The position numbers and the translations under genes were made by a program. A stretch of DNA of 64,000 nucleotides from an uncultured Bacteroidia bacterium. GTDB lineage: Bacteria > Bacteroidota > Bacteroidia > Bacteroidales > ML635J-15. Each line of letters opens with the position of its first letter. The first letter of the stretch is position 1. The notes under the pieces were generated by a model, which worked only from the letters and a program-made list of their open reading frames with translations, made no database searches and had not been told where the DNA came from. Below are positions 9,701 through 62,260 of the stretch, piece after piece. The stretch covers positions 9,198 to 73,197 of the forward strand of contig CADAXK010000008.1 in assembly GCA_902791865.1 (NCBI GenBank), in the 5' to 3' direction.

Positions 9701-10794
9701 AAAATCGTTTCCTTGAACATTTCGGCAACGGCAGTTTCCGAATATTTTTCAAGGAAAATCTTCCTTGAATATTCGTTGAATCTTGGTCGTGGATTCTTTG
9801 CAAAATCGTTTAGCAGTAAGATAAATTCTTCAGCCGTATTGCATTCTCCACCGACTTTTTGTGTCTCAACATCATATCCTTCGAAAGCCTCTGTTGTTCC
9901 GATGATATTTTTGCCGTGCATTAGCGATTCGCAGGTCTTTACCTTCATTCCGCTTCCAGTAAAAATTGGCAGTACCATGATGTCGGCTTCGGCAAAATAT
10001 GGTTGCAAGTCGGGTGCATCGCTCACGATTTCAATGTTTTTCAGCAATTCGGGTTCGTTTTCCTTCAGTTTCTTCATTCCCTTGCCTACTATCTTCATTT
10101 TTATCTTTACCGAAGGAAGTACATTGCGGACAAACCATATTATGCCATCGTTGTTTGGCTTGAAGTACGAACCGAGAAACATGCAAATGGGAACTGGCGA
10201 TGTGTTTGCATCGGTGCGCTCGCTGTCTGTGAATTTGTCGGCAAGAGCGATTGGAATTGTCGAATCGGCGGTTCTGCCGTACCTCGATTTTATTTCTTGT
10301 CCGTCGCGCTCGTTCAAAACGATTATCCTGTCGGAATGCAGGCACGAAAAACGGTCGTTGCTGTCGGCGCATTTTACTGCAAAAAAGCGCGGCAGTCCCT
10401 TGTTCGCTAGCTTTGCTTCGAAGTACGGCACTTCCACATTATGGAAAAATGTAATAATCTTGCCTTTGTATCCCGACTTTTTTAAATCGCGGGCAATTAT
10501 TCCGAAAACACTTCTGTCGATAAACACATAGTCGTATGACTTTGCAATTGAAACAATGTCCTTAACTCGTTTTGGACTAAGCCCGTAGAAATAGCCGAAC
10601 AACGACAATATTCCACTTTTGATGATAGTCCAGAGACTTTTACGCTTTATTTGTTCGTGGACATAATAGGTTTTTATGTTGTCTTCGCCAAGCAAATCCG
10701 ACAGTGCGGTGTAGTTGCGCCATGTGCATACTTCTCCGCCTTCGGGGATTCCTTCCGATTTTTTGTAGCGTATGAACAATAGGTTGCTACTCAT
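9697..10794 (-). CDS. Glycosyltransferase (GT4/GT1-type)
   Basis: C-terminal EADIMVLPIFTGSGMKVKTCESLMHGKNIIGT resembles the GT4 E-x7-E region. Start placed at the internal Met (MSSNLLF). It has a 4-nt overlap with the GT2 gene. Confidence 0.7.
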   Translation of the reverse strand: MSSNLLFIRYKKSEGIPEGGEVCTWRNYTALSDLLGEDNIKTYYVHEQIKRKSLWTIIKSGILSLFGYFYGLSPKRVKDIVSIAKSYDYVFIDRSVFGIIARDLKKSGYKGKIITFFHNVEVPYFEAKLANKGLPRFFAVKCADSNDRFSCLHSDRIIVLNERDGQEIKSRYGRTADSTIPIALADKFTDSERTDANTSPVPICMFLGSYFKPNNDGIIWFVRNVLPSVKIKMKIVGKGMKKLKENEPELLKNIEIVSDAPDLQPYFAEADIMVLPIFTGSGMKVKTCESLMHGKNIIGTTEAFEGYDVETQKVGGECNTAEEFILLLNDFAKNPRPRFNEYSRKIFLEKYSETAVAEMFKETIL

Positions 10795-14999: not shown

Positions 15000-16984
15000 T
15001 ACCTTGCAATAAGAACCTTTTCGGTTACGCTGTGTCCGTCGATGTTCATATTTACGAAATACAGGCCTTCGCTGTAGCTACTAACGTTGATTCTGATTTC
15101 ACCCTCGCTACTGTTGCAGTTATGCATGTCGACCTTTCTTCCAAGCATGTCGTAGATGTCGATGGTAATGTCTTTGCCGTATTCCACAGAGCCAAGGTTG
15201 ATGTTGACAATGTTGTTTGCTGGGTTAGGGAAGATGCTTATTTCGTGTTCGGCAGCATAGTCCTCAACATCAACTATGCATGTAACGGGACGAATTGCGG
15301 ATGAAGTTCTTACACCGAATTTTTCGTAAGCAGTGTTCCATGTATCACCATCGTTGCTTACATACAGGGTATTTGAACCTGACGTACTTCTGTTTGGTGC
15401 AACGCTTACTACAAACCATTCGCCATCGCCGTCTGAGTTGGTGCCGTTGTAGTTGATTTTGTATCCGGCATAGAATGGACCATTTACTTCAACAGGGTCA
15501 TCAAACTCAACTACATAGTTGTAGTTTTCGGGAATGTCGCGCAGATATACTTTCTTTTCGGCAAGAATTGTTTCGGGATGTTGCGTATTGCCGTCCCAAA
15601 TGTAGAAAGTGACGGTTGAGTTATATGAGCCGGTCTGTGATTTAAATACAGGAACAATAATTGCGTCAACCTGTTCGAATGAGTACTGGTTGAACTTGTC
15701 TGCATAATACTTGGTTCTCTGTCCGTTATGACCGCCAATGTATCCCCATGAACCTGTAACAGTTGGGCTACTTGGTATTTCGTTGGGGCGTATGTTTGTT
15801 ATTGTATCGCAGTACATCGGGACAGGACCGGAAAATACCATTATATAGTCTTCCTTTGTTATAGATGTTACTCCGCATTCGTTTGAAACAGAGTGGAAAA
15901 CATCATAGAAACCTGCTGCGTTGTATTCTATTCCATTAATTATGTTAGCGGTTGCCGCTGTATGGGGGTATCCGCCTTCAAATTCCCATGTCCATGCTGT
16001 AGGATTGTTGGTTGATCTGTCCTCGAAATAAACCTTTGTACCTGAGCGGATAAGGCGTGGTGCGGCAACAAATTCGGCTTCTGGTATAGCTACACAAGGG
16101 TCGGTTTCGGCGACTGTAATATAGTTTGTTCTACGCAGTGTGTCCATGCCCATGTTGCTTTCGATAACAAGCTCTACATCGTATGTTCCAGGCATCGGGA
16201 ATATTATGCCGGTTGGATTTTGTACGTTCGAAGTAGTAGGAACAGCACCTTCGAAGAACCAGTGCCAAATGTAAGGATTACCAGTGCTTCTGTCGGTGAA
16301 GTTTACTGCGTCGCCAGGTGCAATATAGGTTCTGTCGACCATGAAATTTGCTTCGGGACTTATTGTAGCTTCTGGGACTACATTGATGTAGAAGTTTTTG
16401 GTTTCAGTATCGCTGTTTCCGTTCATGTCGGTTACGGTGAGTTCTACATTGTATATTCCGACATGTGGATAGGTTATTGGTGCTGGGCGTTCATCGGTTG
16501 ATGATGATGGCATGCCACCTTCGAATGTCCATTGGTATGATGCGAATGGCCCATTTTGTGATGTGCTAGTGAATTGCACAATATTGTTGGCTGGAATTGT
16601 TGTGTAGTTAGCAGTAAAATCGGCAATTGGAGTTTCGGTGTTTGGAAGTACCGTTATGCATTCGGTTACGATTTCCGTATTGACCATAGCGCCGTTTTGC
16701 ACTTCGAGGATTACTGAATATACGCCCGGATGGTAGTAGCAGATGTCCTGTGGGTGCTGTTCGGTTGAAGTTGGGGTTTGTGCGCCCTCGAATGTCCACT
16801 GCCAGTGGGTCGGGTTTCCCGTTGTCATGTCGGTGAAGTATACGCATTCGCCGGCGATAATTTCGTATGATGATACGAGGAACTGCGCATCAAGTCCTGC
16901 CTTGCTGTTTCCCTTTTGCGCAAATATGTTGCACGATAGCACTATTAATGTTGCTAATACTATGATTCTCAATATGTCTTTCAT
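14999..16984 (-). CDS. PKD-repeat surface protein with a T9SS C-terminal sorting domain
   Basis: Signal peptide at the internal Met (MKDILRIIVLATLIVLSCNIFAQ). Four repeats carry F.D.STGNP..W.W.FEG. The C-terminus IFPNPANNIVNINLG...GLYFVNMNIDGHSVTEKVLIAR is a T9SS CTD. Confidence 0.85.
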   Translation of the reverse strand: MKDILRIIVLATLIVLSCNIFAQKGNSKAGLDAQFLVSSYEIIAGECVYFTDMTTGNPTHWQWTFEGAQTPTSTEQHPQDICYYHPGVYSVILEVQNGAMVNTEIVTECITVLPNTETPIADFTANYTTIPANNIVQFTSTSQNGPFASYQWTFEGGMPSSSTDERPAPITYPHVGIYNVELTVTDMNGNSDTETKNFYINVVPEATISPEANFMVDRTYIAPGDAVNFTDRSTGNPYIWHWFFEGAVPTTSNVQNPTGIIFPMPGTYDVELVIESNMGMDTLRRTNYITVAETDPCVAIPEAEFVAAPRLIRSGTKVYFEDRSTNNPTAWTWEFEGGYPHTAATANIINGIEYNAAGFYDVFHSVSNECGVTSITKEDYIMVFSGPVPMYCDTITNIRPNEIPSSPTVTGSWGYIGGHNGQRTKYYADKFNQYSFEQVDAIIVPVFKSQTGSYNSTVTFYIWDGNTQHPETILAEKKVYLRDIPENYNYVVEFDDPVEVNGPFYAGYKINYNGTNSDGDGEWFVVSVAPNRSTSGSNTLYVSNDGDTWNTAYEKFGVRTSSAIRPVTCIVDVEDYAAEHEISIFPNPANNIVNINLGSVEYGKDITIDIYDMLGRKVDMHNCNSSEGEIRINVSSYSEGLYFVNMNIDGHSVTEKVLIAR

Positions 16985-17036
16985 CTGCAAGAGTTTTTTT
17001 TGAAAATGAAAATTAAATATCAAACTGCAAATATAA

Positions 17037-17283
17037 TAAAATTTGAAAATTCAATGATTTGAAAATTCAAAAATTTGATGATTGTAGCGGCGCAATGATT
17101 TGCGCCGATTGCAATGATTTGCACCGGTTGCAATGCTTTGCACCGATTGCAATGCTTTGCGCCGATTGCAATGATTTGCATCGGTTGCAATGCTTTGCAC
17201 CGATTGAGACGCAAGATTTTGCGTCTGTACAGATTATCAAATCCATTATCCATTGTTCATTGTTCATTGTTCATTGTCCATTA
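17037..17283. repeat. Mosaic extragenic repeat
   Basis: Read directly. It starts with AT-rich word repeats. Six tandem units GCAATGMTTTGCRYCGRTT follow at 17092-17205. The hairpin GAGACGCAAGATTTTGCGTCTGTACA is at 17206-17231. A CATTGTT run follows at 17249-17283. Track ORFs here only translate the repeat. Confidence 0.85.
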
Positions 17284-17350
17284 AATTGATTATCTTTGCG
17301 TAGCAAATTATTCCGCCTAATATTAGCGGAAATGTTTTTGTAATTGATTT

Positions 17351-17947
17351 ATGCAGAACAAATTAATCGACGAGGCAATACAGCAATTCATGTCGTTGCC
17401 GGGGATAGGGCGTAAGACGGCACAGCGTTTTGTGCTTCATCTTTTGCGGAAGTCGCTGGATGATGTTACGAATTTTACGACAACCATACAGCGCATGAAG
17501 GAGGACACTAAGTTTTGCCGCGTGTGCAACAATATTTCAGAGAACGATATTTGTGAGGTTTGTGTCAATCCACGTCGCGACCAGTCGACTATATGCGTTG
17601 TGGAAAATATAAACGATGTGATGGCAATTGAAGCCACGTCGCAGTACAATGGTGTGTATCATGTGCTTGGCGGTGTCATTTCGCCAATGGATGGTGTGAG
17701 CCCCAGCGACTTGCACATTTCCGACTTGATTAATCGTGCGTCTGCTGGCAATATAAGCGAGATTATCCTTGCCTTGCCCACGACTATGGAAGGCGAGACC
17801 ACCAATTATTTCATAAACAAAAAGTTACAGCAGACTGGCGTGAAAGTTTCCGTTATTGCGAAGGGAATTGCGGTAGGAGAGGAGTTGCAGTACACCGATG
17901 AGGTTACACTTTCGCAGGCAATAAAGAATAGGAAACCGTTTGAATAG
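17351..17947 (+). CDS. recR: Recombination protein RecR
   Basis: LPGIGRKTAQRF helix-hairpin-helix, a C-x2-C...C-x2-C zinc finger and a Toprim region. Confidence 0.9.
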   Translation: MQNKLIDEAIQQFMSLPGIGRKTAQRFVLHLLRKSLDDVTNFTTTIQRMKEDTKFCRVCNNISENDICEVCVNPRRDQSTICVVENINDVMAIEATSQYNGVYHVLGGVISPMDGVSPSDLHISDLINRASAGNISEIILALPTTMEGETTNYFINKKLQQTGVKVSVIAKGIAVGEELQYTDEVTLSQAIKNRKPFE

Positions 17948-18262
17948 CTTGGGCTAACGCCAGTTTCTATGGCTGCCGCCGTTTCAATGGGCTAAAGCCC
18001 TCAACGAAGTTAAATTTTACAAATAGAAACAAACCTTTGGCTCACGCAGCGAAGTAAGTAATCAGACAAATCCTATTTGTTAAATTTGGAAAAGATTTGT
18101 TTAATTTCTGCCACTTGTGGCACTCAAAAATGGAGTCGCTACGCGAGAACGGCGAAGCCCTCAACGAAGTTAAATCTTACAAATTGGAACAAATATTACA
18201 AATCCTATTTGTTCTATTTGGAATAGATTTGTTGAATTTCTGCCCGTTAGGGCACTCAATAA
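17945..18262. repeat. Intergenic repeat block: GGGCTAAMGCC words plus two imperfect direct copies of a 105-160 bp unit
   Basis: GCCCTCAACGAAGTTAAAT...CAAATCCTATTTGTT...ATTTCTGCC(N)GGCACTCAA occurs starting at about 17997 and again at about 18157. Confidence 0.75.
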
Positions 18263-18294
18263 ACAAAAAAGCCCCGCAAAATGCGAGGCTTTTA
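18262..18294 (-). terminator. Rho-independent terminator of the 18315-21992 gene
   Basis: On the minus strand, AAAGCCTCGCATTTTGCGGGGCTTT is followed by a T run. Confidence 0.75.
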
Positions 18295-21992: not shown

Positions 21993-22215
21993 TTCAATAA
22001 AATTTAAATTATTAAGAAGCAAAGATATGAAGATTTTTTGGAACAGAGAGTATATTTTTGATATTTTTTTCAACAGGACAGACTTGTTTTTCAATGTGTT
22101 TTTGTTGAAGGAGAAACTGCTACTCATATGGATTCTACCGCATTGTAATCGTACGAAGATTTAAGGATTCAAAAATTTAATGGTTTGAAATGGTTTGAGG
22201 TTGTTTCTGGTTGTT

Positions 22216-22241
22216 GAGACGCAAGGCCTTGCGTCTGTACA
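22216..22241. repeat. Terminal hairpin of the repeat family (GAGACGCAAGGCCTTGCGTCTGTACA), with no 19-nt units
   Basis: Read directly. It lies between the 5' end of the 18315-21992 gene and rnpB. Confidence 0.8.
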
Positions 22242-22337
22242 ATACGAAAAGGATATTGAGAATTGTTTTGGTATTGGCTTTTAGCCTGTCAGCCTTCATG
22301 CCTTTAAGTCTGCTTGGCTGTGTGCCTTTTAGAAAAA

Positions 22338-22668
22338 AATCGAGTAGGCCGTAAGCCGAATTCTGTGGCATCCGGGGATGCTGTCTATCATTTATCTGTG
22401 CATTCTACCCCTCGGCTCGGGCGGGCAACCCTATAACGCCGATATACATGAACTTGCAGCTTGCGGGGCGGACGGCTGGCGGTGTCGCCACCACCACCGG
22501 TGGGCTCTTACTCCACCTTCTCACCTTTACCTTGTCGCCAAGGAAGTCGTTCTCTTCTCCGCGACCAAGCCTTCGCAGTCTTCTCCTATTTCAGAAGCGC
22601 AATGCCCTGTGCTGTCCGGACTTTCCTCATTACTTTGCAGTAACGCGATAGACTGACCTACTCGGGGG
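22338..22668 (-). ncRNA. rnpB: RNase P RNA, bacterial type A
   Basis: The minus strand contains GAGGAAAGTCCGGAC, GGTGAGAAGGTGGAGTAAGAGCCCACC and ACAGAATTCGGCTTACGGCCTACTCG. The 5' CGAGTAGG and 3' CCTACTCG can pair as P1. Ends are approximate (+/-10 nt). Confidence 0.85.
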
Positions 22669-22676
22669 CAAAGATA

Positions 22677-22860
22677 GTTAAAAGTTAAAAGTTGAAAGTT
22701 AAAAGTTGAAAAGTTTTGTGGGCTGACGAAAGTTTCATGGGCTAACGCCCGTTTCAAAGTTTCACGTTCAATGTTTAAAGTTCAACGTTCAATGTTTAAC
22801 GTTAAAAGATTTTGTGCTGCTGAAGCCGAACCTTGAACCCTTAAACTTTGAACCTTAAAC
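22677..22860. repeat. Low-complexity word repeats plus a GGGCTGACG...GGGCTAACGCC module
   Basis: Includes AAAGTTAAAAGTTGAAAGTTAAAAGTTGAAAAG, AAAGTTTCACGTTCAATGTTTAAAGTTCAACGTTCAATGTTTAACGTT and GAACCTTGAACCCTTAAACTTTGAACCTTAAACC. Confidence 0.7.
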
Positions 22861-22863
22861 CTC

Positions 22864-24846
22864 CTATTTTGCTACCATGAACTTAATGGCTTTGCGTTTC
22901 TTTTGAGCTTTCTTGTCGCCAACAAGAACTTTCAGATAGTAGTATCCGCTATTGTATTTGGAAACATCAATAATTGTATCCATGCTATCGATGATGCCAC
23001 TATCCATAAACATACCCATTTCGTTGTATATCTGATATTCATAAATGTCTTTTGTTATGTCGTAGTTCGCCCTGACAGTGATTTGTCCTGATGATGTTGG
23101 GTTCGGGAAAATCTCGAAGTTTACAATTTCAGGTGTAGGTTCTGGTTCGGGTATTATAGGTTTGGGCAATACTTTGAGTGTAAGTGTGACAATTGAGTCG
23201 CATCCTTCATCGTTTGTTAATGTTTGAGTGAAAGTATAATCGCCATCTTCGTGTATTGCTGCAATTTCGAAACCATTGTTTGTGTAGTCTGTATCAATCT
23301 CAATGCTGTCGATTAGCTCAATATTGTCGATTCTGCCGACTTCGAGACGGAGAACGACAATGCTGTCGCAGATGTTGCCTACTGAACCCGCAGCAAAGAA
23401 TAATGTGTCAAATATGATGTTGTTGGTTCTGTTAACTATTTCGGAATATTCAATGTTAAAGCCATTGCCGTGGTATTCGTCACCACCGTCGCAGATATGC
23501 TCTGGGATGTTCACCTGATAGTGGTCGTCGACCCTTAGGTTAAGTTTTATGGTGCTGTCGCATCCATGCTGGCTTGTGAGCAGGTGCTGGTATGTGCCAG
23601 TTTGGTTTAGTTCCTGTCCGAAGAAGTTGTATGTTGCGCTTTCGCAAATTGTAAGGTCGATATTTGTTGTGTAGGTGTCGTTAACGGTGAGTCTCAATTC
23701 AACTACCGAATCGCATCCGTTAGCAAGCGGATATGAATTGCTATGGTTGAATGTTCCGGCATTGTTTTGCATTGGCAGAGTAAAACCATTTTGGCTGTAT
23801 GAGTCACCCTTGCAAATTTCATCTGATAAATTGTAAGTAATTATGCTTCTGTAATGAACGGTATATGTTTTTGCTTTGTCGCCGTGTGTTACATTTATTG
23901 TGGCGGTTTTACCATCTGCAGAAAGGTTTGTAGAATATTCGGCACGAGGCGATGCGGTTGTCGCTGAAATATAATTTGTAGAACCGCATGGTACATCTAT
24001 GTAATAATCTGTTGTATTCTGGTTGAAATTGGGAATTTCTGTGCCGTTTATGGTTATTGACGAGAGATTTGCATTGTATATTAGTTCAATGTCATCAATG
24101 AAGAGTTCATCGCCTGCGCTACCTGCCATAGCCTCCCAGTTGGTCGAGAATGTTATAAGGATAAACTGCGGATCGTTTGACGGGCAACCTTCGTAATCGA
24201 TAGGAGAAGAATGGCGGCGCCATCCGCTATTATCGACAGCAACACCACCAGAGGTATTTGTGAAGTTGTAAGAAGGGACTTTACCAACTATATGGGCTTC
24301 GTATCCAGCTTGATTTCCTGGCAGAGGGTCCTGAAGGTTGTAATTGTCGTGTATGTAAAGGTGGCAGCACGCTTGACTTGCATTGCTGGCGTTGTGAACC
24401 TTTGCCCAGAAAACTATTGAATCTGGTTTCGCGTTTAGGCGGTGATTGAATTCATTATTATCTTTTATTGTTCTGTTTCCGTTAGCAGAGTTGTTGGCAT
24501 CCAATGAAACAAGTTGCATTTGTCCACTAGTTAGTGCTCCATTTGCGACAATACCCGCAAAAGGACTGGTCGAGTATATACGACACGAATAATTTCCAGT
24601 TGAACCAGGCCTTACATTGTTTGAGCGCTCGTGCCTTTTCCCTTTTGCAGTACTACAACCTACCCACATAGTACAGTTTGCTGATGGATAAGAGTTCCAT
24701 CCTGTAGGTTCATCGTTATTGCCACCGTCCCATTGTTCGAAGCCTGGGTTTTCGAATTGATATACCTGTGAATATGTGTTTTGAGGAATTGCTAAAGCAA
24801 AAATTGCAATAATTGCAGTAAAAAAAGTGAAATTCTTTATTCTCAT
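22864..24846 (-). CDS. T9SS-secreted surface protein (PCMD-like N-domain, cadherin-like beta-sandwich, Cys repeats, CTD)
   Basis: Signal peptide at the internal Met (MRIKNFTFFTAIIAIFALAIPQNTYSQ). Contains FENPGFEQWDGG...PTGWNSY and LSSITINGTEIPNFNQNTTDYYIDV. Four ...GCDS.v.L.L.V repeats. The C-terminus is IFPNPTSSGQITV...GYYYLKVLVGDKK. Confidence 0.8.
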   Translation of the reverse strand: MRIKNFTFFTAIIAIFALAIPQNTYSQVYQFENPGFEQWDGGNNDEPTGWNSYPSANCTMWVGCSTAKGKRHERSNNVRPGSTGNYSCRIYSTSPFAGIVANGALTSGQMQLVSLDANNSANGNRTIKDNNEFNHRLNAKPDSIVFWAKVHNASNASQACCHLYIHDNYNLQDPLPGNQAGYEAHIVGKVPSYNFTNTSGGVAVDNSGWRRHSSPIDYEGCPSNDPQFILITFSTNWEAMAGSAGDELFIDDIELIYNANLSSITINGTEIPNFNQNTTDYYIDVPCGSTNYISATTASPRAEYSTNLSADGKTATINVTHGDKAKTYTVHYRSIITYNLSDEICKGDSYSQNGFTLPMQNNAGTFNHSNSYPLANGCDSVVELRLTVNDTYTTNIDLTICESATYNFFGQELNQTGTYQHLLTSQHGCDSTIKLNLRVDDHYQVNIPEHICDGGDEYHGNGFNIEYSEIVNRTNNIIFDTLFFAAGSVGNICDSIVVLRLEVGRIDNIELIDSIEIDTDYTNNGFEIAAIHEDGDYTFTQTLTNDEGCDSIVTLTLKVLPKPIIPEPEPTPEIVNFEIFPNPTSSGQITVRANYDITKDIYEYQIYNEMGMFMDSGIIDSMDTIIDVSKYNSGYYYLKVLVGDKKAQKKRKAIKFMVAK

Positions 24847-24992
24847 ATATATGCCTTTTAAAATTTCAAGGCGCAAAGGTCTAATAAATTTTTTGAATAA
24901 TAGTTTTTTTGTGAGAGTTTTTTTAACGATGGGGTGTTGATGAGAATCGCGCATTCGGGACGATGCATGCATCGTCCGTGCATTTTAGCATT

Positions 24993-25100
24993 GCAATAAT
25001 TTGCGTTGATTGCAATGATTTGCCCCGATTGAGACGCAAAATTTTGCGTCTGTACAATCGAATATATTATTTGCGTTTCATAGGCAAACGCCTGTTCGCC
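24993..25100. repeat. Repeat-family copy: two 19-nt units, the terminal hairpin and a roughly 45-nt extension
   Basis: GCAATAATTTGCGTTGATT, then GCAATGATTTGCCCCGATT, then GAGACGCAAAATTTTGCGTCTGTACA (25031-25056), then AATCGAATATATTATTTGCGTTTCATAGGCAAACGCCTGTT. Confidence 0.8.
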
Positions 25101-25192
25101 TGCAAGCCTTTTTGCCCATTATCCAAATCAAAAATCGTAAATCGTAATTCGTCATTCTAAAATATTATTGTATTTTTGTAAAAAGTTTAATC

Positions 25193-25963
25193 ATGAAGAC
25201 AAAAGAAGAAATTGTAAGCGATTGGCTGCCGAGATATACGGGAAAGACACTTGATAGTTTTGGGGAATATATCCTGTTGACTAATTTTCAGTTGTATGTA
25301 GATTTGTTTGCCGAATGGAACAATGTTCCTGTTGATGGGCTTGACAGAAATATGCCTAGTGCTACTGTTGATGGGATTACCATAATAAATTTTGGTATGG
25401 GAAGCCCCAACGCGGCAATAATAATGGATTTGCTGAGTGCTGTTTCGCCTAAGGCAGTGCTGTTTCTTGGCAAGTGCGGTGGTTTGAAGGCAAAAAATAA
25501 GCTTGGCGATTTGATTTTGCCGATTGCTGCAATCCGTAGCGAAGGTACATCAAACGACTATCTGCCACCCGAAGTTCCTGCTTTGCCGGCATTTATGCTT
25601 CAGCGAGCTGTGTCAACATCCATAAGGGACAATGGACACGACTATTGGACAGGAACGGTGTTTACAACAAACCGCAGGGTATGGGAATACGACGAGCGTT
25701 TTAAGAAATACCTTATCAAGACGCGTGCGATGGCTGTAGATATGGAGACGGCAACAATATTTATAGTAGGTTTTGCCAATGAAATTCCATGCGGAGCCTT
25801 GTTGCTGGTCAGCGATCAGCCTATGGTTTCGTCTGGTGTAAAAACCGAGGCGAGCGACAAGAAAGTTACAGAGCAATTTGTGCACGACCATTTAAAAATA
25901 GGTATAGATTCGCTGAGGATAATAAAGAGAGGCGGTTCATCAGTGAAACATTTGAAATTCTAG
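25193..25963 (+). CDS. Nucleoside phosphorylase-family protein (short AMP-nucleosidase-like)
   Basis: PNP_UDP_1-type motifs: FGMGSPNAAIIMDLL, GKCGGL and AVDMETATIF. Confidence 0.7.
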   Translation: MKTKEEIVSDWLPRYTGKTLDSFGEYILLTNFQLYVDLFAEWNNVPVDGLDRNMPSATVDGITIINFGMGSPNAAIIMDLLSAVSPKAVLFLGKCGGLKAKNKLGDLILPIAAIRSEGTSNDYLPPEVPALPAFMLQRAVSTSIRDNGHDYWTGTVFTTNRRVWEYDERFKKYLIKTRAMAVDMETATIFIVGFANEIPCGALLLVSDQPMVSSGVKTEASDKKVTEQFVHDHLKIGIDSLRIIKRGGSSVKHLKF

Positions 25964-26027
25964 TAGAGCCGTTGCGTGCAACGGCTCCATAAAGTGCCCC
26001 CAAAAGGGGAAATATGGATATATTGCA

Positions 26028-27664: not shown

Positions 27665-28966
27665 ATGAATTTCAAATTCGGCATATTATCGGCGGTAATT
27701 TCCATGCTAATGCTTTGCCATAATTTGTATGCGTTTGATTTTGAGCGTGATACTGTAGCATGCGTTGATCGAGTATATGGAAAAAACTTGAAAACCGTGC
27801 GTATGCATTTGCAGGACTGGGAAGTTTCGTATCCAGTGATGGAACTATACGGTGAGGTAGGACTTGAATTTTCATTTGATCAGATTGAATCGCAACCGCA
27901 GAATTATTACTATACCGTCATGCATTGCACCTACGACTGGAAGCCTTCGAATTTGATGTTTGTCGATTATGCTGATGGTTTTGATGAGAATGAAATTAGG
28001 AACTATGAGGAATCGCAGAGTACATACGTGCAATATACGCATTTTTCGCTAAACCTGCCAAACGATGATTTGCAACTGAAACTTTCTGGAAACTATTTGC
28101 TTATTGTATTTGTAAAAGGGCCTGAGGAAAGAATTGTGTGTACTAAACGTTTTATGGTTTACGAAAATCTTGTGACGGTTGAGGGGCGAGTTAATTCCAA
28201 TGTGTTTGGTGAGTTTAAAAAGGAGTACCAGAAGGTTGATTTCGAGATAATACCGAAGAAATATCCAATCTATAATCCGCTCGAAGAACTGAAGGTTACG
28301 CTTGTGCAGAATTTCCAGTGCGATGAGTCATACACCGAAATGCAACCATCGTTTGTCGGCAACGATTCGTATATTTTCAATTGGGAGGACAAATATCTGT
28401 TTAATGCAGGAAACGAGTACAGGTATTTCAATTTCAATAATCTGGAGCTAAATTCGGAATATGTTGAGCATATTGAGTATCGCAAACCGTACTATTACAT
28501 CGACCTTGTGCCAGGAAAATCGAAGTATTTCGAGCCTTATGCAAGCGACGAGGATATAAATGGAGGTTACATAATAAAGACCAACAGGCGCAACAACAAT
28601 AATTTCCCGGAAATCCAGTCGGAGTATGCCATTGTGCGTTTTCGACTGAACAATCCTTCGATGCTTGGCGGTGCTAGTGTCTATCTGTATGGTGCGCTTA
28701 CCAATTATGAGCTTTCGTCGCAATATAAGATGAAATATAACATGGAGGCACATTGCTACGAATTGCTTATGTTTCTCAAGCAAGGATATTATAACTATAG
28801 GTACGTTGTTGTTCCGGAGGGAGAAGGTGCTGGGATGGATAGGTTTTTCTTCGAAGGAAGCCACAAGCAGACCGAAAACGACTATTTGTTGTTTGTGTAT
28901 CACCGCAATCCGAGTGAATCGTACGACAGGTTGATAAATTACACGAAATTCAATAGCAGAAATTAG
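27665..28966 (+). CDS. DUF5103-like protein (possibly the T9SS plug-protein family)
   Basis: Signal peptide, about 430 aa, with GYYNYRYVVV and ENDYLLFVYHR near the C-terminus as I recall for this family. The assignment is from memory only. Confidence 0.5.
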   Translation: MNFKFGILSAVISMLMLCHNLYAFDFERDTVACVDRVYGKNLKTVRMHLQDWEVSYPVMELYGEVGLEFSFDQIESQPQNYYYTVMHCTYDWKPSNLMFVDYADGFDENEIRNYEESQSTYVQYTHFSLNLPNDDLQLKLSGNYLLIVFVKGPEERIVCTKRFMVYENLVTVEGRVNSNVFGEFKKEYQKVDFEIIPKKYPIYNPLEELKVTLVQNFQCDESYTEMQPSFVGNDSYIFNWEDKYLFNAGNEYRYFNFNNLELNSEYVEHIEYRKPYYYIDLVPGKSKYFEPYASDEDINGGYIIKTNRRNNNNFPEIQSEYAIVRFRLNNPSMLGGASVYLYGALTNYELSSQYKMKYNMEAHCYELLMFLKQGYYNYRYVVVPEGEGAGMDRFFFEGSHKQTENDYLLFVYHRNPSESYDRLINYTKFNSRN

Positions 28967-28967
28967 A

Positions 28968-29150
28968 GGGCTGACGCCTGTTTGATGGGCTAAAGCCCGT
29001 TTCAAGTAGAATCGCGCCATGGCACGATTCTATAAGATGATTCAAAAATTCGATGATTTGTATTGGCGCAATGCGTTGCGCCGATTGAGACGCAAAATTT
29101 TGTGTCTGTACAATAGAATATATTCATTGTGTTTCATAGGCAACGGTCTG
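28968..29150. repeat. Repeat-family copy
   Basis: GGGCTGACGCCTGTTTGATGGGCTAAAGCCCGTTTCAAG comes first. One 19-nt unit GCAATGCGTTGCGCCGATT follows at 29068-29086. The hairpin GAGACGCAAAATTTTGTGTCTGTACA is at 29087-29112, followed by the extension AATAGAATATATTCATTGTGTTTCATAGGCAACGG. Confidence 0.8.
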
Positions 29151-29225
29151 TTTGTCCCAAAATCCTTTCTTCTCAAAAAAAATCTTTGCCATAAAGAAAA
29201 ATAGTTGTATTTTTGCATCGCAAAT

Positions 29226-29310: not shown

Positions 29311-29341
29311 AGAAAAAAGACGGATTCCGTCTTTTTTTTTG
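29311..29341 (+). terminator. Rho-independent terminator after tRNA-Leu
   Basis: AAAAGACGGATTCCGTCTTTT is followed by a T run. Confidence 0.8.
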
Positions 29342-40530: not shown

Positions 40531-40726
40531 GTCTAATTGAATTTGAGTACATAAAGGCGTACTATATTGTTAATTAGCATTATATCCGTGTATAAACGAC
40601 AAGAAACGACTAATAAACGAAAGTAAACGCTTAAAAACCGACTCGTGTTTCCAAATCACCCGACTTTTGCAGCGGATTTCAAAACGAAGTCCGAACAAAA
40701 TGTTTAACGTTTAAAATTTTACGATT

Positions 40727-41092
40727 ATGAATTTAAGAAATCGCGTACAACTGATTGGAAATCTGGGTTCGGAACCGCAGATCAGGGAATTTGGAAATGG
40801 TAGGAAACTCGCACGCTTCTCGCTCGCAACTACCGATGTTTATAAAAAAGAAGGTAAATATGTGCGTGACACGCAATGGCACAGCGTTACGGCTTGGAAT
40901 CGTATCGCAGAAGTCCTGCAGGACCGCGAAGTTTCCACGGGTAGTGAAATAATAGTAATAGGTAGTGTGGTAAGTACCAAGTTTACCGACCGAGAAGGTC
41001 GTGAGCGCAAGGTTTCGGAGATTGTTGCCGACAGCATAATGATAAGAAGGTTGAAACGTGCGGATGCAAAGGTGGAGAAGAATATTGCATAG
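40727..41092 (+). CDS. ssb: Single-stranded DNA-binding protein, short form (subtype A)
   Basis: OB-fold SSB pattern MNLRNRVQLIGNLGSEPQIREF.NGRKLARFSLAT...TQWHSVTAW. It has no acidic C-terminal tip. Confidence 0.8.
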   Translation: MNLRNRVQLIGNLGSEPQIREFGNGRKLARFSLATTDVYKKEGKYVRDTQWHSVTAWNRIAEVLQDREVSTGSEIIVIGSVVSTKFTDREGRERKVSEIVADSIMIRRLKRADAKVEKNIA

Positions 41093-41112
41093 TTTGTTGA
41101 TGTAATAGATAG

Positions 41113-41433
41113 GTGGAAATGCTGGCTCCAAACGGTAAAATATCAAATCTTTGCAACGAGTCTAAACAAAAAGAGCAATGTGGCACTCATTCATTTTTTG
41201 TGACCAATATTGCTCTTTATGAGCCATATAGGTTTGTCGCTACCGATAACTACTCGGACGAGAGTGACCGTCAATGGTTCCCTTTGGAAGAAAATGCTTC
41301 GGCATGTTTCGACCGAAAGGTTGACACAAAGCTATTGGATTTTTTTGATATGGCAAAAGAAAATTTCGAAAAAGTCAGGGGCAAAGTTGACTGCAATAGA
41401 GAGCCACTTCCGCAATATATAACAGAAAAATAA
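41113..41433 (+). CDS. Hypothetical protein
   Basis: ORF only. It fills the gap between ssb and the frameshifted gene. Confidence 0.4.
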   Translation: MEMLAPNGKISNLCNESKQKEQCGTHSFFVTNIALYEPYRFVATDNYSDESDRQWFPLEENASACFDRKVDTKLLDFFDMAKENFEKVRGKVDCNREPLPQYITEK

Positions 41434-41440
41434 TGGCATT

Positions 41441-41859
41441 ATGGCACTCATTGACGATAGGATAGCGCAGTTCCGTGCTGAGGTTGGCGACAGGGAACTA
41501 ACCGAGGAGCAGAGAAAGATTTTCAATGCATTCACAAAAAAGAATGGTGCTGCAACTTTTCTGAATGTTACCGATAAGGACGGAAGAAATGTACGAATAA
41601 AATTTATTCAAATAAAATAAAAACAGGTTCGCAACATATTCTTATCAACCATTTTGGAACTATCATTCATTGGGTAACAGCTTGGGAAATACTAACCCTA
41701 TACGAAGTCGTGGAAAGTGGAGAACATTATGTTAGTAATGGTTATGTCGTGTATCGTATAGAAACAGATTTTGATGGAGTAAAGATTAGTACGGTATTGA
41801 AGTTTGTTGAAGATAAAGGTATAGCAGTGCTAAAAAGTTTCTATTCAAATAGAGAATAA
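41441..41859 (+). pseudogene. Frameshifted copy of the SSB-associated QH[IV]L[LI]xH protein gene
   Basis: Frame 1 reads MALIDDRIAQFRAEVGDRELTEEQRKIF...IKFIQIK and stops at 41618-41620. A second frame continues ...TGSQHILINHFG...LKSFYSNRE and stops at 41857-41859. The two frames overlap near an A-rich stretch. Confidence 0.7.
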
Positions 41860-41987
41860 AAAAGCCTTGAAAGACCGGCCGTTTCCTCCCAATGTAAGGG
41901 TCCGCACCGCGTTAGCGGGGGTGGTGCCAAATCTCAAAGGCGATGCAAAAGTAGTAATAAATTATTAATTGACAAAAATTTAAAGAC

Positions 41988-42329
41988 ATGGAAATTAGAA
42001 ATTTTGTAATGTTGGTCGGCAATATGGGCGCTGATCCGAAGGTAAACGAGACAAGAAATGGAAAGGTTGTAAGGTTTTCGCTGGCAACTTCCGAGAATTA
42101 TTATGAAAACGGCAAGCCTGCAAGTCGTACAGAGTGGCACAACATTGTTGTGTGGGGAGCAAATGCCGACAAGGTGTCGGAGCGGTGCACGAAGGGAACG
42201 CATGTTACCATCGTTGGCAGGTTGACTTCGCGTAGTTACGAGGATGCGAACAATATTAAGCGGTATATAACGGAAGTGGTCGCTAATGAGGTTATTTGCG
42301 AATCGTCGTTAAAGGAAAAGACTGAATAA
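41988..42329 (+). CDS. ssb: Single-stranded DNA-binding protein, short form (subtype B)
   Basis: MEIRNFVMLVGNMGADPKVNETRNGKVVRFSLAT...TEWHNIVVWG. No acidic tip. Confidence 0.8.
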   Translation: MEIRNFVMLVGNMGADPKVNETRNGKVVRFSLATSENYYENGKPASRTEWHNIVVWGANADKVSERCTKGTHVTIVGRLTSRSYEDANNIKRYITEVVANEVICESSLKEKTE

Positions 42330-42346
42330 AGCTTATCCTTGGGATT

Positions 42347-42763
42347 ATGGCACTCATTGACGATAGAATAGCGCAGTTCCGAGCGGAGGTTGGCGACAGG
42401 GAACTAACCGAGGAGCAAAATAGGGTTTTCGAAACTTTTTGCCGGACCAAAGGAAAACTGAAACGTATCTGCACTACGGACGGTAATGGCGATTCTGTTA
42501 CAATAATGTTTCCATCTGATGATGAAAATGAAGGTACACAACATGTTTTACTCAAACATTACAAGACAAATCGTGGTAGCGTTACCGCATTGGAGATCTT
42601 AAATTTGATGGATGTAGTGCGCAATGGTAGTATGGAATCAGATGAGAATCATATTGTTTATAGTATGGAAAAGTATCTAGGTAAGATAAAATTTACGATT
42701 GCAGTAAAGGTGGTCAAGAATGGGAATATTTTCAAATCGTTTTATTCAAATAGGTATAAATAA
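42347..42763 (+). CDS. SSB-associated protein of unknown function (conserved QHVLLKH motif)
   Basis: A 138-aa intact paralog of 41441-41859 and of the prophage gene at 55644-56168. Confidence 0.7.
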   Translation: MALIDDRIAQFRAEVGDRELTEEQNRVFETFCRTKGKLKRICTTDGNGDSVTIMFPSDDENEGTQHVLLKHYKTNRGSVTALEILNLMDVVRNGSMESDENHIVYSMEKYLGKIKFTIAVKVVKNGNIFKSFYSNRYK

Positions 42764-42927
42764 AAAATGTTTCACTCAGCCTGTCTGGTCCCCCAGCAGA
42801 GGAGGCTTCCACGCATCATTCCGAGACAAATGCCGGCTTCCCGAAACGAGTGGCGCGATCTTGGTGCCAAAGCGAAACACGATGCAAAAGTAGTAATAAA
42901 TTATTAACTGACAAAAATTTAAAGAAA

Positions 42928-43281
42928 ATGGATACAAGAAATTTTGTAAGATTGGTCGGTAATCTTGGAACCGACCCGAGGGTAACAGAGACAAAGAATG
43001 GTAAAGTAGCAAGATTCTCATTGGCTACAACCGAAAATTATTTTGAAAATGGCAAGCAAGTCGCAAAAACCGAGTGGCACAATGTGGTTGCATGGAATGC
43101 AAATGCCGATTTGGTGGCAGAAAAATGCACGAAAGGTTCGCGTGTCGTTGTTATGGGAAAACTGGCAAGTCGTAGCTACGATGACCAGAATAAAGTCAGG
43201 CGGTATATTACCGAGGTTGTTGCCGAAGAAATAATTAGTGAGAAAAAGGGAGTGCATAATGCAGATGATACCGAGTGTTAA
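42928..43281 (+). CDS. ssb: Single-stranded DNA-binding protein, short form (subtype B)
   Basis: Start at the internal Met (MDTRNFVRLVGNLGTDPRVTETKNGKVARFSLAT...TEWHNVVAW). The upstream part of the track ORF covers the conserved non-coding box. Confidence 0.8.
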   Translation: MDTRNFVRLVGNLGTDPRVTETKNGKVARFSLATTENYFENGKQVAKTEWHNVVAWNANADLVAEKCTKGSRVVVMGKLASRSYDDQNKVRRYITEVVAEEIISEKKGVHNADDTEC

Positions 43282-43299
43282 TTATTAAAATCTATAGTT

Positions 43300-43635
43300 A
43301 TGAATTTACGAAACAGAGTACAGTTGATTGGAAATCTTGGCGGTGATCCAAAATTTTATGAATTTCCAAGCGGAACGAAGTTGGCAAGAATTTCAGTTGC
43401 CACATCCGAATTTTCAAAGCATAACGACAAGGTCGTCAAGGAAACTCAGTGGCATAATGTTGTTGCTTGGGGCAGTCTTGCCGACATGGTGAAGACAAAA
43501 ATAGCAAAGGGCTATGAAGTAGTGGTTGACGGATGCCTTAAACAAAACAGCTATACTGACCGAAATGGTGTGGAATGCCAATCTTACGAAGTAGTAGCAG
43601 ACAGAATATTATTTTGTAAGCCGGAGAATAATTGA
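43300..43635 (+). CDS. ssb: Single-stranded DNA-binding protein, short form (subtype A)
   Basis: MNLRNRVQLIGNLGGDPKFYEF.SGTKLARISVAT...TQWHNVVAWG. No acidic tip. Confidence 0.8.
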   Translation: MNLRNRVQLIGNLGGDPKFYEFPSGTKLARISVATSEFSKHNDKVVKETQWHNVVAWGSLADMVKTKIAKGYEVVVDGCLKQNSYTDRNGVECQSYEVVADRILFCKPENN

Positions 43636-46743: not shown

Positions 46744-46773
46744 TGTAGCGGCGCAATGCATTGCGCCGCTACA
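46744..46773. repeat. Perfect 13-bp-stem palindrome related to the repeat family (TGTAGCGGCGCAATGCATTGCGCCGCTACA)
   Basis: Read directly. It shares the GGCGCAATG..TTGCGCC core with 17087-17106 and 29065-29082. It lies 14 nt after the dapA stop and has no T tract. Confidence 0.75.
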
Positions 46774-51794: not shown

Positions 51795-51825
51795 AAAAAA
51801 GTCGGATGTTAGTCCGACTTTTTTT
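51795..51825. terminator. Bidirectional Rho-independent terminator
   Basis: AAAAAAGTCGGATGTTAGTCCGACTTTTTTT lies between convergent genes. Confidence 0.8.
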
Positions 51826-62193: not shown

Positions 62194-62260
62194 TGTCCTA
62201 AAAATTAAAAGTTACACGCTCGCAAAATTGATGACAATGAAAATGGCGATGTCCCGTTTA

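What the first reader, a model, noticed from the sequence alone, without database searches (positions are those of the whole stretch)
17037..17283. Modular extragenic repeat family: variable-number 19-nt GCAA-N4-TTGC units capped by a conserved GAGACGCAA-N4-TTGCGTCTGTACA hairpin
At 17092-17205 six head-to-tail 19-mers (GCAATGMTTTGCRYCGRTT, each containing a GCAA/TTGC mini-palindrome) run directly into the hairpin at 17206-17231. The same terminal hairpin recurs at 22216-22241 with 0 units, at 25031-25056 with 2 units and at 29087-29112 with 1 unit. A related perfect palindrome, TGTAGCGGCGCAATGCATTGCGCCGCTACA, follows dapA at 46744-46773. All copies are intergenic. The design of variable-copy short units plus an invariant cap differs from CRISPR because there are no spacers. 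It resembles REP/BIME-type mosaic elements. I do not recall this family being described for Bacteroidales.
Basis: seen in the sequence. Interest (0 to 1): 0.6.

Follow-up and report, generated by a model that had tools for sequence, protein, structure and literature searches.

The report
REP palindrome cluster with tandem half-units
These intergenic hairpin repeats in a rumen Bacteroidales genome are REP elements of a catalogued type linked to a RayT transposase family, and one cluster has grown a strain-variable run of 19-base half-copies, so the finding is real but mostly ordinary.

Summary
There are six head-to-tail 19-mers at 17092-17205. The hairpin GAGACGCAA-N4-TTGCGTCTGTACA occurs at 17206, 22216, 25031 and 29087, against 0 expected by chance. 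A perfect palindrome follows dapA at 46744-46773.

The "cap" is not a new design. Read on the minus strand it is GTAC-AGACGCAA-N4-TTGCGTCT. That is a one-base foot variant of GTAG-AGACGCAA-N4-TTGCGTCT-CTAC.

A capped scan of species genomes found that palindrome in 120 stretches, 76 from Bacteroidota and the rest from at least nine other phyla. It lies inside or within 140 nt of all 7 RayT genes examined. Its translation (RDAMHCVS or VETQCIASL) is embedded in 104 of 120 RayT homologues. Quentin et al. 2018 list the same sequence for TnpA_REP subclass 2.4 (RAYT group 4).

The 19-mers are internal duplications of a second GTAG-footed REP, GTAG-CGGCGCAA-N4-TTGCGCCG. Their number differs between close strains (3 or 6, plus a 19-nt indel). 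Relatives with 85-95% identical RecR have no array.

Best reading: a BIME/REPIN-like REP cluster with slippage-type expansion. No RayT gene lies in the window, and any effect on transcription is untested. It is a new member of a known kind, of modest interest.

The parts
17037..17083 (+). AT-rich left module (AAAATTTGAAAATTCA, about 2.6 copies). Related copies lie at 22158-22185 and 29031-29058.
   Evidence: TRF; repeat family D14.
17084..17110 (+). REP-A: GTAG foot, then CGGCGCAA-TGAT-TTGCGCCG, then ATT. Its body is unit 1 of the array.
   Evidence: 8-bp perfect stem with a 4-nt loop directly after GTAG; family D15.
17092..17205 (+). Six head-to-tail 19-nt units, GCAA-TGMT-TTGC-RYCG-RTT. Units 2-6 are partial copies of REP-A that lack the outer left arm.
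   Evidence: TRF score 174. Unit table. Copy number is 3 or 6 in related strains. ssDNA fold of 17080-17235 is -47.2 kcal/mol, z=-8.0.
17202..17231 (-). REP-B ('cap'). On the minus strand it reads GTAC-AGACGCAA-AATC-TTGCGTCT-CAAT.
   Evidence: It is the same form as the hairpin next to a RayT gene in L145.
17242..17282 (+). Heptamer tandem repeat (TCCATTG, 5.9 copies) between the REP cluster and the recR promoter.
   Evidence: TRF. The order of variants differs in L005, and the array is about 19 copies long in ortholog L151.
17291..17298 (+). TATCTTTG, which matches the Bacteroidetes -7 promoter motif TAnnTTTG and lies upstream of recR (start 17351). It is conserved in orthologs, unlike the repeats. 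It is context, not part of the repeat.
   Evidence: Read from the sequence and conserved in L148, L150 and L151. The motif assignment rests on general knowledge.
22212..22241 (-). REP-B alone (0 units). It lies between the 3' end of RNase P RNA (22337-22664, minus strand) and the start of a 1270-aa Cleaved_Adhesin/T9SS ORF (22127, minus strand).
   Evidence: RNA hairpin -15.5 kcal/mol. Retained in the 95% relative L148 at 13546.
24958..24977 (.). Extra palindrome GGACGATGCATGCATCGTCC in the left mosaic of the third cluster.
24993..25030 (+). Two 19-nt units (GCAATAATTTGCGTTGATT and GCAATGATTTGCCCCGATT).
   Evidence: The ortholog in L134/L135/L137 has 1 unit and a different left mosaic.
25027..25056 (-). 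REP-B cap, between divergent genes (a T9SS cargo ORF starting about 24847 on the minus strand, and PNP_UDP at 25193 on the plus strand).
25057..25100 (+). Right-flank module ATCGAATATATTATTTGCGTTTCATAGGCAAACGCCTGTT, shared with 29113-29152.
   Evidence: Family D3, 87% identity. Also found in L128/L138.
25963..25990 (+). Another GTAG-footed hairpin, GTAG-AGCCGTTGC-GT-GCAACGGCT, immediately after the PNP_UDP gene.
   Evidence: RNA hairpin -15.3 kcal/mol.
29006..29033 (+). REP-C: GTAG-AATCGCGCC-ATGG-CACGATT-CTAT.
   Evidence: It recurs in L131, L132 and L134.
29060..29086 (+). REP-A with a degenerate foot (GTAT-TGGCGCAA-TGCG-TTGCGCCG-ATT). This is the single unit of the fourth cluster.
29083..29112 (-). 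REP-B cap with 1 mismatch. It lies downstream of a T9SS_plug ORF (27665-28966) and 114 nt upstream of tRNA-Leu (29226).
46744..46773 (.). REP-A as a perfect 'double-foot' palindrome, (T)GTAG-CGGCGCAA-TGCA-TTGCGCCG-CTAC(A). It lies between dapA and a radical-SAM methylthiotransferase-like ORF.
   Evidence: RNA hairpin -23.8 kcal/mol, z=-5.5.

Best explanation
The region is a cluster of repetitive extragenic palindromes (REPs) of the GTAG-foot superfamily, arranged like a BIME or REPIN.

There are two related hairpins. REP-A is GTAG-CGGCGCAA-N4-TTGCGCCG, with its foot on the plus strand. REP-B, the 'cap', is GTAC-AGACGCAA-N4-TTGCGTCT, with its foot on the minus strand. They sit back to back with the feet outward.

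Shown here: REP-B is a local one-base foot variant of GTAG-AGACGCAA-N4-TTGCGTCT-CTAC. That palindrome is the cognate REP of RAYT group 4 (TnpA_REP subclass 2.4) HUH/Y1 single-strand DNA nucleases.

Inferred from the biochemistry of E. coli TnpA_REP and of IS200/IS605 elements: such hairpins form on single-stranded DNA at replication forks. The RayT enzyme recognises them through the foot tetranucleotide and cuts and rejoins them, which seeds copies into intergenic DNA.

The 19-nt units are head-to-tail duplications of the inner two-thirds of REP-A. They most likely arose by hairpin-promoted replication slippage, and less likely by aberrant RayT nicking and rejoining. Shown here: their number is polymorphic between close strains.

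Inferred and untested: the elements are largely selfish or neutral. As stable DNA or RNA hairpins without T-tracts they may, as a side effect, pause transcription, protect 3' ends, or insulate the neighbouring divergent promoters.
For: Of 151 palindromes, 124 carry at least one GTAG foot and 50 carry two.

2. RayT-like ORFs with NHFH...WQ...YIxNNP motifs occur in three of those random loci: L014, L099 and L063. The L014 ORF aligns to E. coli TnpA_REP (4ER8) across the HUH and Y motifs, E=1.8e-5. Its homologues are named 'REP element-mobilizing transposase RayT' by JGI.

3. All 7 RayT loci examined hold the palindrome inside the gene or within 140 nt of it. L145 10612-10631, cGTACAGACGCAAAATTTTGCGTCTCAACa, is the reverse complement of the window's cap form.

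4. 104 of 120 RayT homologues contain RDAMHCVS or VETQCIASL, the translated palindrome. Two carry GGCGCAA-stem variants that resemble REP-A.

5. Quentin 2018 describes 'double foot' REPs and in-gene REP insertions for subclass 2.4 in Cyanobacteria, Bacteroidetes and various other phyla. The paper lists this exact sequence.

6. The array behaves as a variable-number repeat. At the recR locus it has 6 units, 6 units of different sequence, or 3 units, and one strain shows a 19-nt indel. Three short metagenome contigs end inside it.

7. The clusters are not conserved. Relatives with 95%, 89% and 85% identical RecR show other REP arrangements or none, and one orthologous spacer is only 78 nt with no repeats. 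The promoter -7 box is kept throughout.

8. The hairpins are stable. They lack the T-tract seen in the window's canonical terminators.
Against: No RayT gene lies in the 64-kb window or in about 200 kb of related loci. The rest of this genome could not be read, so current mobilisation in this organism is unproven.

The local REP-B foot is GTAC or GTAT, not the canonical GT[AG]G.

The exact cap-plus-flank pattern gave only 14 stretches in JGI metagenomes, mostly orthologs of the window loci. Local copy number may therefore be tens rather than hundreds.

No target-site footprint could be defined. Slippage as the cause of the expansion is inferred from the pattern only.
Confidence: 0.8

Rival explanations
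1. The hairpins are primarily transcription terminators or 3'-end stabilisers selected for that role. Their repetition would reflect convergent or duplicated terminators rather than RayT-linked REPs.
For: Three of five sites lie downstream of a gene or RNA on some strand: dapA, the T9SS_plug ORF, and rnpB. The RNA hairpins are stable, at -11 to -24 kcal/mol. REPs in E. coli are reported to affect termination and mRNA stability (cited in PMC6006769 and PMC3733652).
Against: Two of the four caps lie between divergently transcribed genes, where no 3' end is expected. None has a T-tract, whereas the window's canonical terminators do, at 29311-29339, 51795-51824 and 18267-18293. The same 28-nt sequence sits inside RayT coding regions. 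The sites are not conserved in close relatives.
Confidence: 0.1
2. The 19-nt array is a binding-site array, or a contingency (phase-variable) repeat, that tunes the divergent recR and T9SS-cargo promoters.
For: The array sits between divergent genes about 60-200 nt upstream of the putative recR promoter. Its copy number varies between strains: 3, 6, and a 19-nt indel. Heptamer arrays next to it also vary.
Against: The array is absent in relatives with 85-95% identical RecR, which keep the promoter box. The units are partial copies of a dispersed REP rather than a distinct operator. The array lies upstream of the promoter core, so changing the unit number does not alter -33/-7 spacing. No candidate binding protein was identified.
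Confidence: 0.06
3. The cap is a portable sigma-70-type promoter (TTGAGA, 18 nt, TACAAT) that drives the downstream plus-strand genes.
For: The consensus scan scores 10 of 12 at 22214, 25029 and 29085. Three caps lie 114-137 nt upstream of plus-strand genes: recR, PNP_UDP and tRNA-Leu.
Against: The number of promoter-like sites in the region equals the shuffle expectation, 37 against 34.7. Bacteroidota housekeeping promoters use TTTG/TAnnTTTG (general knowledge), and such boxes lie closer to recR and tRNA-Leu. The cross-phylum consensus GTAGAGAC...GTCTCTAC lacks both hexamers. The copy at 22216 has no plus-strand gene downstream, and the copy at 17206 has TACAGA.
Confidence: 0.03
4. It is a degenerate or unusual CRISPR-like array.
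For: The repeats are short, partly palindromic and regularly spaced.
Against: The period is 19 nt with no spacers: units abut. Rfam gives no CRISPR repeat match above noise. The units derive from a dispersed REP.
Confidence: 0.01

Closest known systems
'Double-foot' GTAG REPs associated with TnpA_REP subclass 2.4 / RAYT group 4 (Quentin et al. 2018, PMC6006769; Bertels et al. 2017, PMC5581495)
   Same: The core AGACGCAA-N4-TTGCGTCT is identical. GTAG/CTAC feet are present on REP-A at 46744 and in the cross-genome consensus. The taxonomic pattern matches: Bacteroidetes, Cyanobacteria and scattered phyla. In-frame copies lie inside the RayT gene. The exact sequence is listed in their Table S1.
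   Different: In this lineage the REP-B foot is GTAC or GTAT. The opposite side is (C)GATTG rather than CTAC. REP-B is paired with a second REP type. No RayT gene was seen in the available sequence.
E. coli BIMEs and Pseudomonas REPINs (REP doublets; Bertels & Rainey 2011, PMC3116915; Nunvar 2010, PMC2817692)
   Same: Two REPs lie in opposite foot orientation with a short linker. Flanking modules are mosaic. Clusters are extragenic. Content varies between strains.
   Different: The sequences are unrelated and the RayT group is different. Each REP here is itself a near-perfect palindrome, so the doublet folds as separate hairpins, not as one long REPIN hairpin. Binding of IHF, gyrase or Pol I is untested.
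Tandemly reiterated REP clusters (Di Nocera et al. 2013, PMC3733652)
   Same: [quoted passage not shown] Comparable arrays appear here in other phyla, for example five copies at 45-57 nt spacing in Anaerolineales locus L024.
   Different: Here the repeated unit is shorter than a whole REP: 19 nt, without the outer left arm and foot. That paper reported GTAG REPs in Proteobacteria, Cyanobacteria, Chloroflexi and PVC, but not in Bacteroidetes.
Cyanobacterial STRR heptamer repeats (recalled from memory; not tested)
   Same: Short heptamer tandem arrays in intergenic DNA of lineages that also carry group-4 RayT REPs. Here heptamer arrays directly abut the REP clusters.
   Different: The unit sequences differ. 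No relationship has been demonstrated, so this is a lead only.

Membership tests
GTAG-foot REP superfamily | Short (20-40 nt) palindrome able to form a stem-loop | tested here: met
   8-bp perfect stems with 4-nt loops at 17088, 17207, 22217 and 25032, and 13-14 bp at 46744. RNA folds of -11 to -24 kcal/mol with z from -3.5 to -6.
GTAG-foot REP superfamily | GT[AG]G tetranucleotide directly 5' of the stem | tested here: inconclusive
   REP-A, REP-C and the hairpin at 25963 have GTAG. The four REP-B caps have GTAC on the minus strand, and 29060 has GTAT. Across genomes the same core carries GTAG on 174 of the 302 scored feet.
GTAG-foot REP superfamily | Many dispersed, mainly extragenic copies in one genome | not testable with these tools
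   The window has 7 REP-A or REP-B copies plus 3 other footed hairpins in 64 kb, and related loci have about 1 per 7-10 kb.
REPtron / RAYT group 4 (TnpA_REP subclass 2.4) system | The same REP flanks or sits inside a RayT gene | tested here: met
   Met in other genomes: 7 of 7 RayT loci, and 104 of 120 homologues carry the translated palindrome.
REPtron / RAYT group 4 (TnpA_REP subclass 2.4) system | A cognate RayT gene is present in this organism | not testable with these tools
   None in the window or in the fetched related loci, by motif regex and tblastn.
REPtron / RAYT group 4 (TnpA_REP subclass 2.4) system | The protein has the HUH and catalytic Y motifs of TnpA_REP | tested here: met
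   L014 and L099 ORFs have NHFH...WQ.RYHDHIIR...NYI.NNP. The L014 ORF aligns to 4ER8 at E=1.8e-5. The Pfam Y1_Tnp match is below cut-off, at 19 against 23 bits.
BIME / REPIN | Two REPs in inverted orientation separated by a short linker | tested here: met
   The GTAG foot is on the plus strand at the left (17084, 29060) and the GTAC foot is on the minus strand at the right (17231, 29112). The linker is ATT.
BIME / REPIN | The doublet folds into one long hairpin (REPIN) | tested here: not met
   The minimum-energy and centroid folds keep REP-A and REP-B as separate hairpins. The two stems match each other at only 6 of 8 positions.
CRISPR array | Repeats separated by unique spacers of similar length | tested here: not met
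   Units are contiguous, with period equal to unit length at 19 nt. There is no significant CRISPR repeat match in Rfam.
Intrinsic terminator | GC-rich hairpin followed by a T-tract | tested here: not met
   The caps are followed by GTACAAT or GTACAGA and are not listed by the terminator scan. Canonical terminators elsewhere in the window are listed.
MITE | Terminal inverted repeats with target-site duplication | tested here: inconclusive
   No duplication was recognisable. Repeat-free orthologous spacers (L150) are too diverged to define insertion boundaries.

The most novel reading that the evidence does not exclude
The group-4 RayT REP may be a self-seeding, horizontally travelling system. 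Almost every RayT gene of this clade carries an in-frame copy of its own target palindrome. Nearly the same 28-nt sequence appears in at least ten phyla and, without any RayT gene, many times in phage genomes. In some lineages, such as this rumen Bacteroidales, it then diversifies into mosaic clusters and hypervariable half-REP arrays next to promoters, which could act as strain-level expression or recombination hot spots. This would contrast with the mostly vertical, lineage-specific REPIN-RAYT picture from Proteobacteria.
Probability: 0.15. Interest if true: 0.55.

Novelty: new member of a known kind. Interest (0 to 1): 0.3.

Why it matters
The result assigns an unannotated, assembly-breaking repeat in rumen Bacteroidales to a known mobile-element system, RAYT group 4 REPs. 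This has three practical uses. It helps annotation, because spurious ORFs are called across these repeats. It explains why short metagenome contigs end at this locus. It offers a 19-nt variable-number marker for strain typing.

It also documents that one REP sequence is shared across many phyla and phages, and that it is embedded in its own transposase gene. That pattern may merit a dedicated survey. It does not reveal a new kind of system.

Tried and rejected
- Rfam at gathering threshold over the whole window, and at E<=10 over 16950-17350, found only rnpB, tRNAs and noise.
- All-against-all clustering of ORFs in the 120 palindrome loci found no protein family that recurs next to the hairpin. 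This is as expected for dispersed REPs.
- Full-text searches for the palindrome string returned only unrelated primer sequences. The match came from a supplementary table instead.
- The supplements of Di Nocera 2013 do not contain the sequence.
- The search for a RayT gene in the window and in related loci was negative.
- GC skew is mostly positive across the window. All four caps share one orientation, but with four copies this cannot be tied to replication direction.
- A loose scan for GTAG followed by a hairpin (at most 1 mismatch, stem of at least 7) is only modestly above first-order Markov simulations, 6 against a mean of 1.95. I did not use it as evidence.
- The CRISPR, intrinsic-terminator and sigma-70-promoter readings were considered and rejected, as set out under the rival explanations.

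Full report
OBSERVATION

The sequence is as described. Tandem Repeats Finder gives 6.1 copies of a 19-nt unit at 17092-17206, with 87% matches and score 174. The pattern GAGACGCAANNNNTTGCGTCTGTACA occurs at 17206, 22216 and 25031 exactly, and at 29087 with one mismatch. One hundred dinucleotide-preserving shuffles gave no match. Contiguous units before the caps number 6, 0, 2 and 1. The perfect palindrome TGTAGCGGCGCAATGCATTGCGCCGCTACA lies at 46744-46773, just after a DHDPS/dapA ORF.

All copies are intergenic:
- Copy 1 lies between a PKD/T9SS ORF on the minus strand and recR.
- Copy 2 lies between the 3' end of RNase P RNA (22337-22664, minus strand; Rfam 192 bits) and the start of a 1270-aa adhesin-like ORF.
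- Copy 3 lies between a T9SS cargo ORF and a PNP_UDP gene.
- Copy 4 lies between a T9SS_plug ORF and tRNA-Leu.

The window comes from a Bacteroidales genome seen in several rumen or gut metagenome assemblies. Three short contigs that encode the identical RecR end inside the 19-mer array.

ANATOMY

The first 'unit' is the body of a complete hairpin, GTAG-CGGCGCAA-TGAT-TTGCGCCG, which I call REP-A (17084). The dapA palindrome is the same element with a foot at both ends. The site at 29060 is a copy with a degenerate foot, GTAT.

Units 2-6 repeat only GCAA-N4-TTGC-RYCG-RTT. That is the inner part of REP-A plus the ATT/GTT linker.

The 'cap', read on the minus strand, is GTAC-AGACGCAA-N4-TTGCGTCT-CAAT. 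I call it REP-B. Each cluster is therefore a feet-outward doublet of two related REPs whose middle has been duplicated.

Further modules surround the clusters:
- an AT-rich left module;
- a 45-nt right module shared by copies 3 and 4;
- a third GTAG hairpin, GTAGAATCGCGCCATGGCACGATTCTAT, at 29006;
- a fourth, GTAGAGCCGTTGCGTGCAACGGCTC, at 25963;
- heptamer arrays;
- a GGGCTRACGCC..GTTTCAA family.

As single-stranded DNA, 17080-17235 folds at -47.2 kcal/mol (z=-8.0). REP-A and REP-B form separate hairpins in that fold. The individual RNA hairpins are -11 to -24 kcal/mol.

WHAT THE CAP IS

Seventy-six were from Bacteroidota. The others were from Chloroflexota, Planctomycetota, Desulfobacterota/Myxococcota, Patescibacteria, Cyanobacteriota, Ignavibacteriota, Acidobacteriota, Pseudomonadota and other groups. 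The flanks give the consensus GTAG-AGACGCAA-N4-TTGCGTCT-CTAC. Of 151 palindromes, 124 have at least one GTAG foot and 50 have two.

No protein family recurs beside the palindrome. However, a motif search and tblastn found RayT-like genes in three of these loci, L014, L099 and L063.

In L014 the gene is flanked on both sides by doublets of the palindrome. In L099 the palindrome lies in frame inside the gene. The L014 protein aligns to E. coli TnpA_REP (PDB 4ER8) over the HUH and tyrosine motifs, E=1.8e-5. It has at least 7,973 homologues, many of which JGI names 'REP element-mobilizing transposase RayT'.

Five further RayT loci, fetched independently of the palindrome, all carry it inside the gene. 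Three of them also have a copy within 60 nt of the gene. One such copy, L145 10612-10631 (cGTACAGACGCAAAATTTTGCGTCTCAACa), is exactly the form of the window's cap.

Of the 120 best homologues, 104 contain RDAMHCVS or VETQCIASL. These are the two stop-free translations of the palindrome. Two homologues carry GGCGCAA-stem variants that resemble REP-A.

COMPARISON WITH THE LITERATURE

Di Nocera et al. 2013 defined GTAG-tagged REPs but did not report them in Bacteroidetes.

Quentin et al. 2018 describe TnpA_REP subclass 2.4, which equals RAYT group 4 of Bertels et al. 2017. They describe it as abundant in Cyanobacteria and Bacteroidetes and scattered in other phyla, with 'double foot' REPs and with REP insertions inside the transposase gene. 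Their Table S1 lists GTAGAGACGCAATGCATTGCGTCTCTAC for Chlorobium chlorochromatii and GTAGAGACGCAATTTATTGCGTCT for Cytophaga hutchinsonii under subclass 2.4.

The core hairpin is therefore a catalogued REP. There is no Rfam family for it.

DYNAMICS

A JGI metagenome scan with the 30-nt cap pattern returned 14 stretches, all apparently rumen-derived. Most are orthologs of the window loci, plus four new loci.

At the recR locus the array has:
- 6 units in the window, L001 and L002;
- 6 units of different sequence in L129 and L136;
- 3 units in L133;
- a 19-nt indel in L005.

Relatives differ further:
- With 95% identical RecR (L148, L149) there is no array. They have REP-B followed by a degenerate REP-A.
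- With 89% identity (L150) there is a single TTAG-footed REP-A.
- With 85% identity (L151) there is no REP upstream. There are about 19 heptamer repeats instead, and a reversed REP-B downstream of recR.
- All of these keep the TATCTTTG promoter box.

The spacer that holds copy 3 is equally unstable. In L148 it holds a chimeric REP. In L151 it holds about 18 tandem GGCTWCGCCGTTTCA units. In L150 it is a 78-nt spacer with no repeats.

In L130 two caps lie in frame in the C-terminal tail of an FtsE-like ORF. In-gene REPs of this sort have been reported before.

INTERPRETATION

The clusters are REP/BIME-like selfish or neutral DNA of the RAYT group 4 system.

Mobilisation by a RayT enzyme acting on hairpins in single-stranded DNA is inferred from published work on TnpA_REP and IS200/IS605. 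It is not shown for this organism, because no RayT gene lies in the sequence I could read.

The 19-mer array is best explained by slippage between overlapping hairpins. Each unit's tail, RYCG-RTT, supplies the outer left arm of the next unit.

A role as terminators is unlikely to be primary. Two caps sit between divergent genes. None has a T-tract, while canonical terminators in the window do. The resemblance of the cap to a sigma-70 promoter, TTGAGA-18-TACAAT, is probably a by-product of its feet.

VERDICT

The REP/BIME interpretation is supported. The 'units plus invariant cap' design and the implied novelty are not. The finding is a new member of a known kind, of modest interest.

Noticed in passing
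window 17242-17282, 22676-22715, 22753-22803, 25132-25157; L151 about 9860-9990: Heptamer tandem arrays (TCCATTG, AGTTAAA, AAATCGT) abut the REP clusters and promoters. The recR-upstream array is about 6 copies here and about 19 copies in an 85% relative. Short tandem repeats also touch the palindrome in other phyla (L032, L057, L094, L108, L117).
   Followed up: partly
window 17946-18007, 22715-22757, 28963-29005; L151 4630-5118 (reverse strand): A second intergenic repeat family, GGGCTRACGCC(N)GTTTCAA. In L151 about 18 tandem copies of ATGGCTWCGCCGTTTCA fill the spacer orthologous to window copy 3. No GTAG foot is present, and its nature is unknown.
   Followed up: partly
L140 7466-13219; L142 712-3967; L199 4214-6615: RayT homologues sit inside or beside defence loci. 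In L140 the gene lies between a type I restriction-like helicase and N6_Mtase/Methylase_S. In L142 it lies between N6_Mtase+GIY-YIG and Methylase_S. In L199 it lies directly after GmrSD_N and HEPN_RiboL-PSP genes. That is 3 of 5 fetched loci.
   Followed up: no
L153-L197 (IMG/VR viral contigs), e.g. L154 559-586 and 2416-2443: The full 28-nt palindrome GTAGAGACGCAA-N4-TTGCGTCTCTAC occurs 66 times on 45 viral stretches (GC 36-63%), with at least 9 copies on one 24.8-kb contig. In L154 it flanks the major-capsid and prohead-protease genes. No RayT gene was found on these contigs.
   Followed up: partly
L130 7156-8169: An FtsE-like ABC ATPase ORF carries a roughly 100-aa C-terminal tail that contains two REP-B copies, each translated as NVQTQNFASQSE.
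   Followed up: partly
window 22864-24972 (minus strand); L002 9670-9903: Gene calls run through the repeats. The 702-aa ORF is probably over-extended by 41 codons across the palindrome at 24958-24977, with a likely true start MRIKNFTFF at 24847. A 77-aa ORF is called on the 19-mer array in L002.
   Followed up: partly
window 22337-22664 (minus strand): Bacterial RNase P class A RNA (192 bits). It is flanked upstream by short tandem repeats and the GGGCTRACGCC family, and downstream by a lone REP-B.
   Followed up: yes
window 40714-43340: Four tandem paralogous small ORFs of about 110-145 aa with repeated upstream regions (families D4, D5, D7, D8, D17). They were not examined.
   Followed up: no
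window 62255-62591: A dense patch of 9-30-nt tandem repeats (ATGCACAATA, AATTCTACA). It was not examined.
   Followed up: no
L024 2895-3107; L020: In an Anaerolineales MAG the same palindrome is reiterated five times at 45-57 nt spacing, together with a conserved linker. A Saprospiraceae MAG shows several copies amid GAGACG-rich tandem repeats.
   Followed up: no
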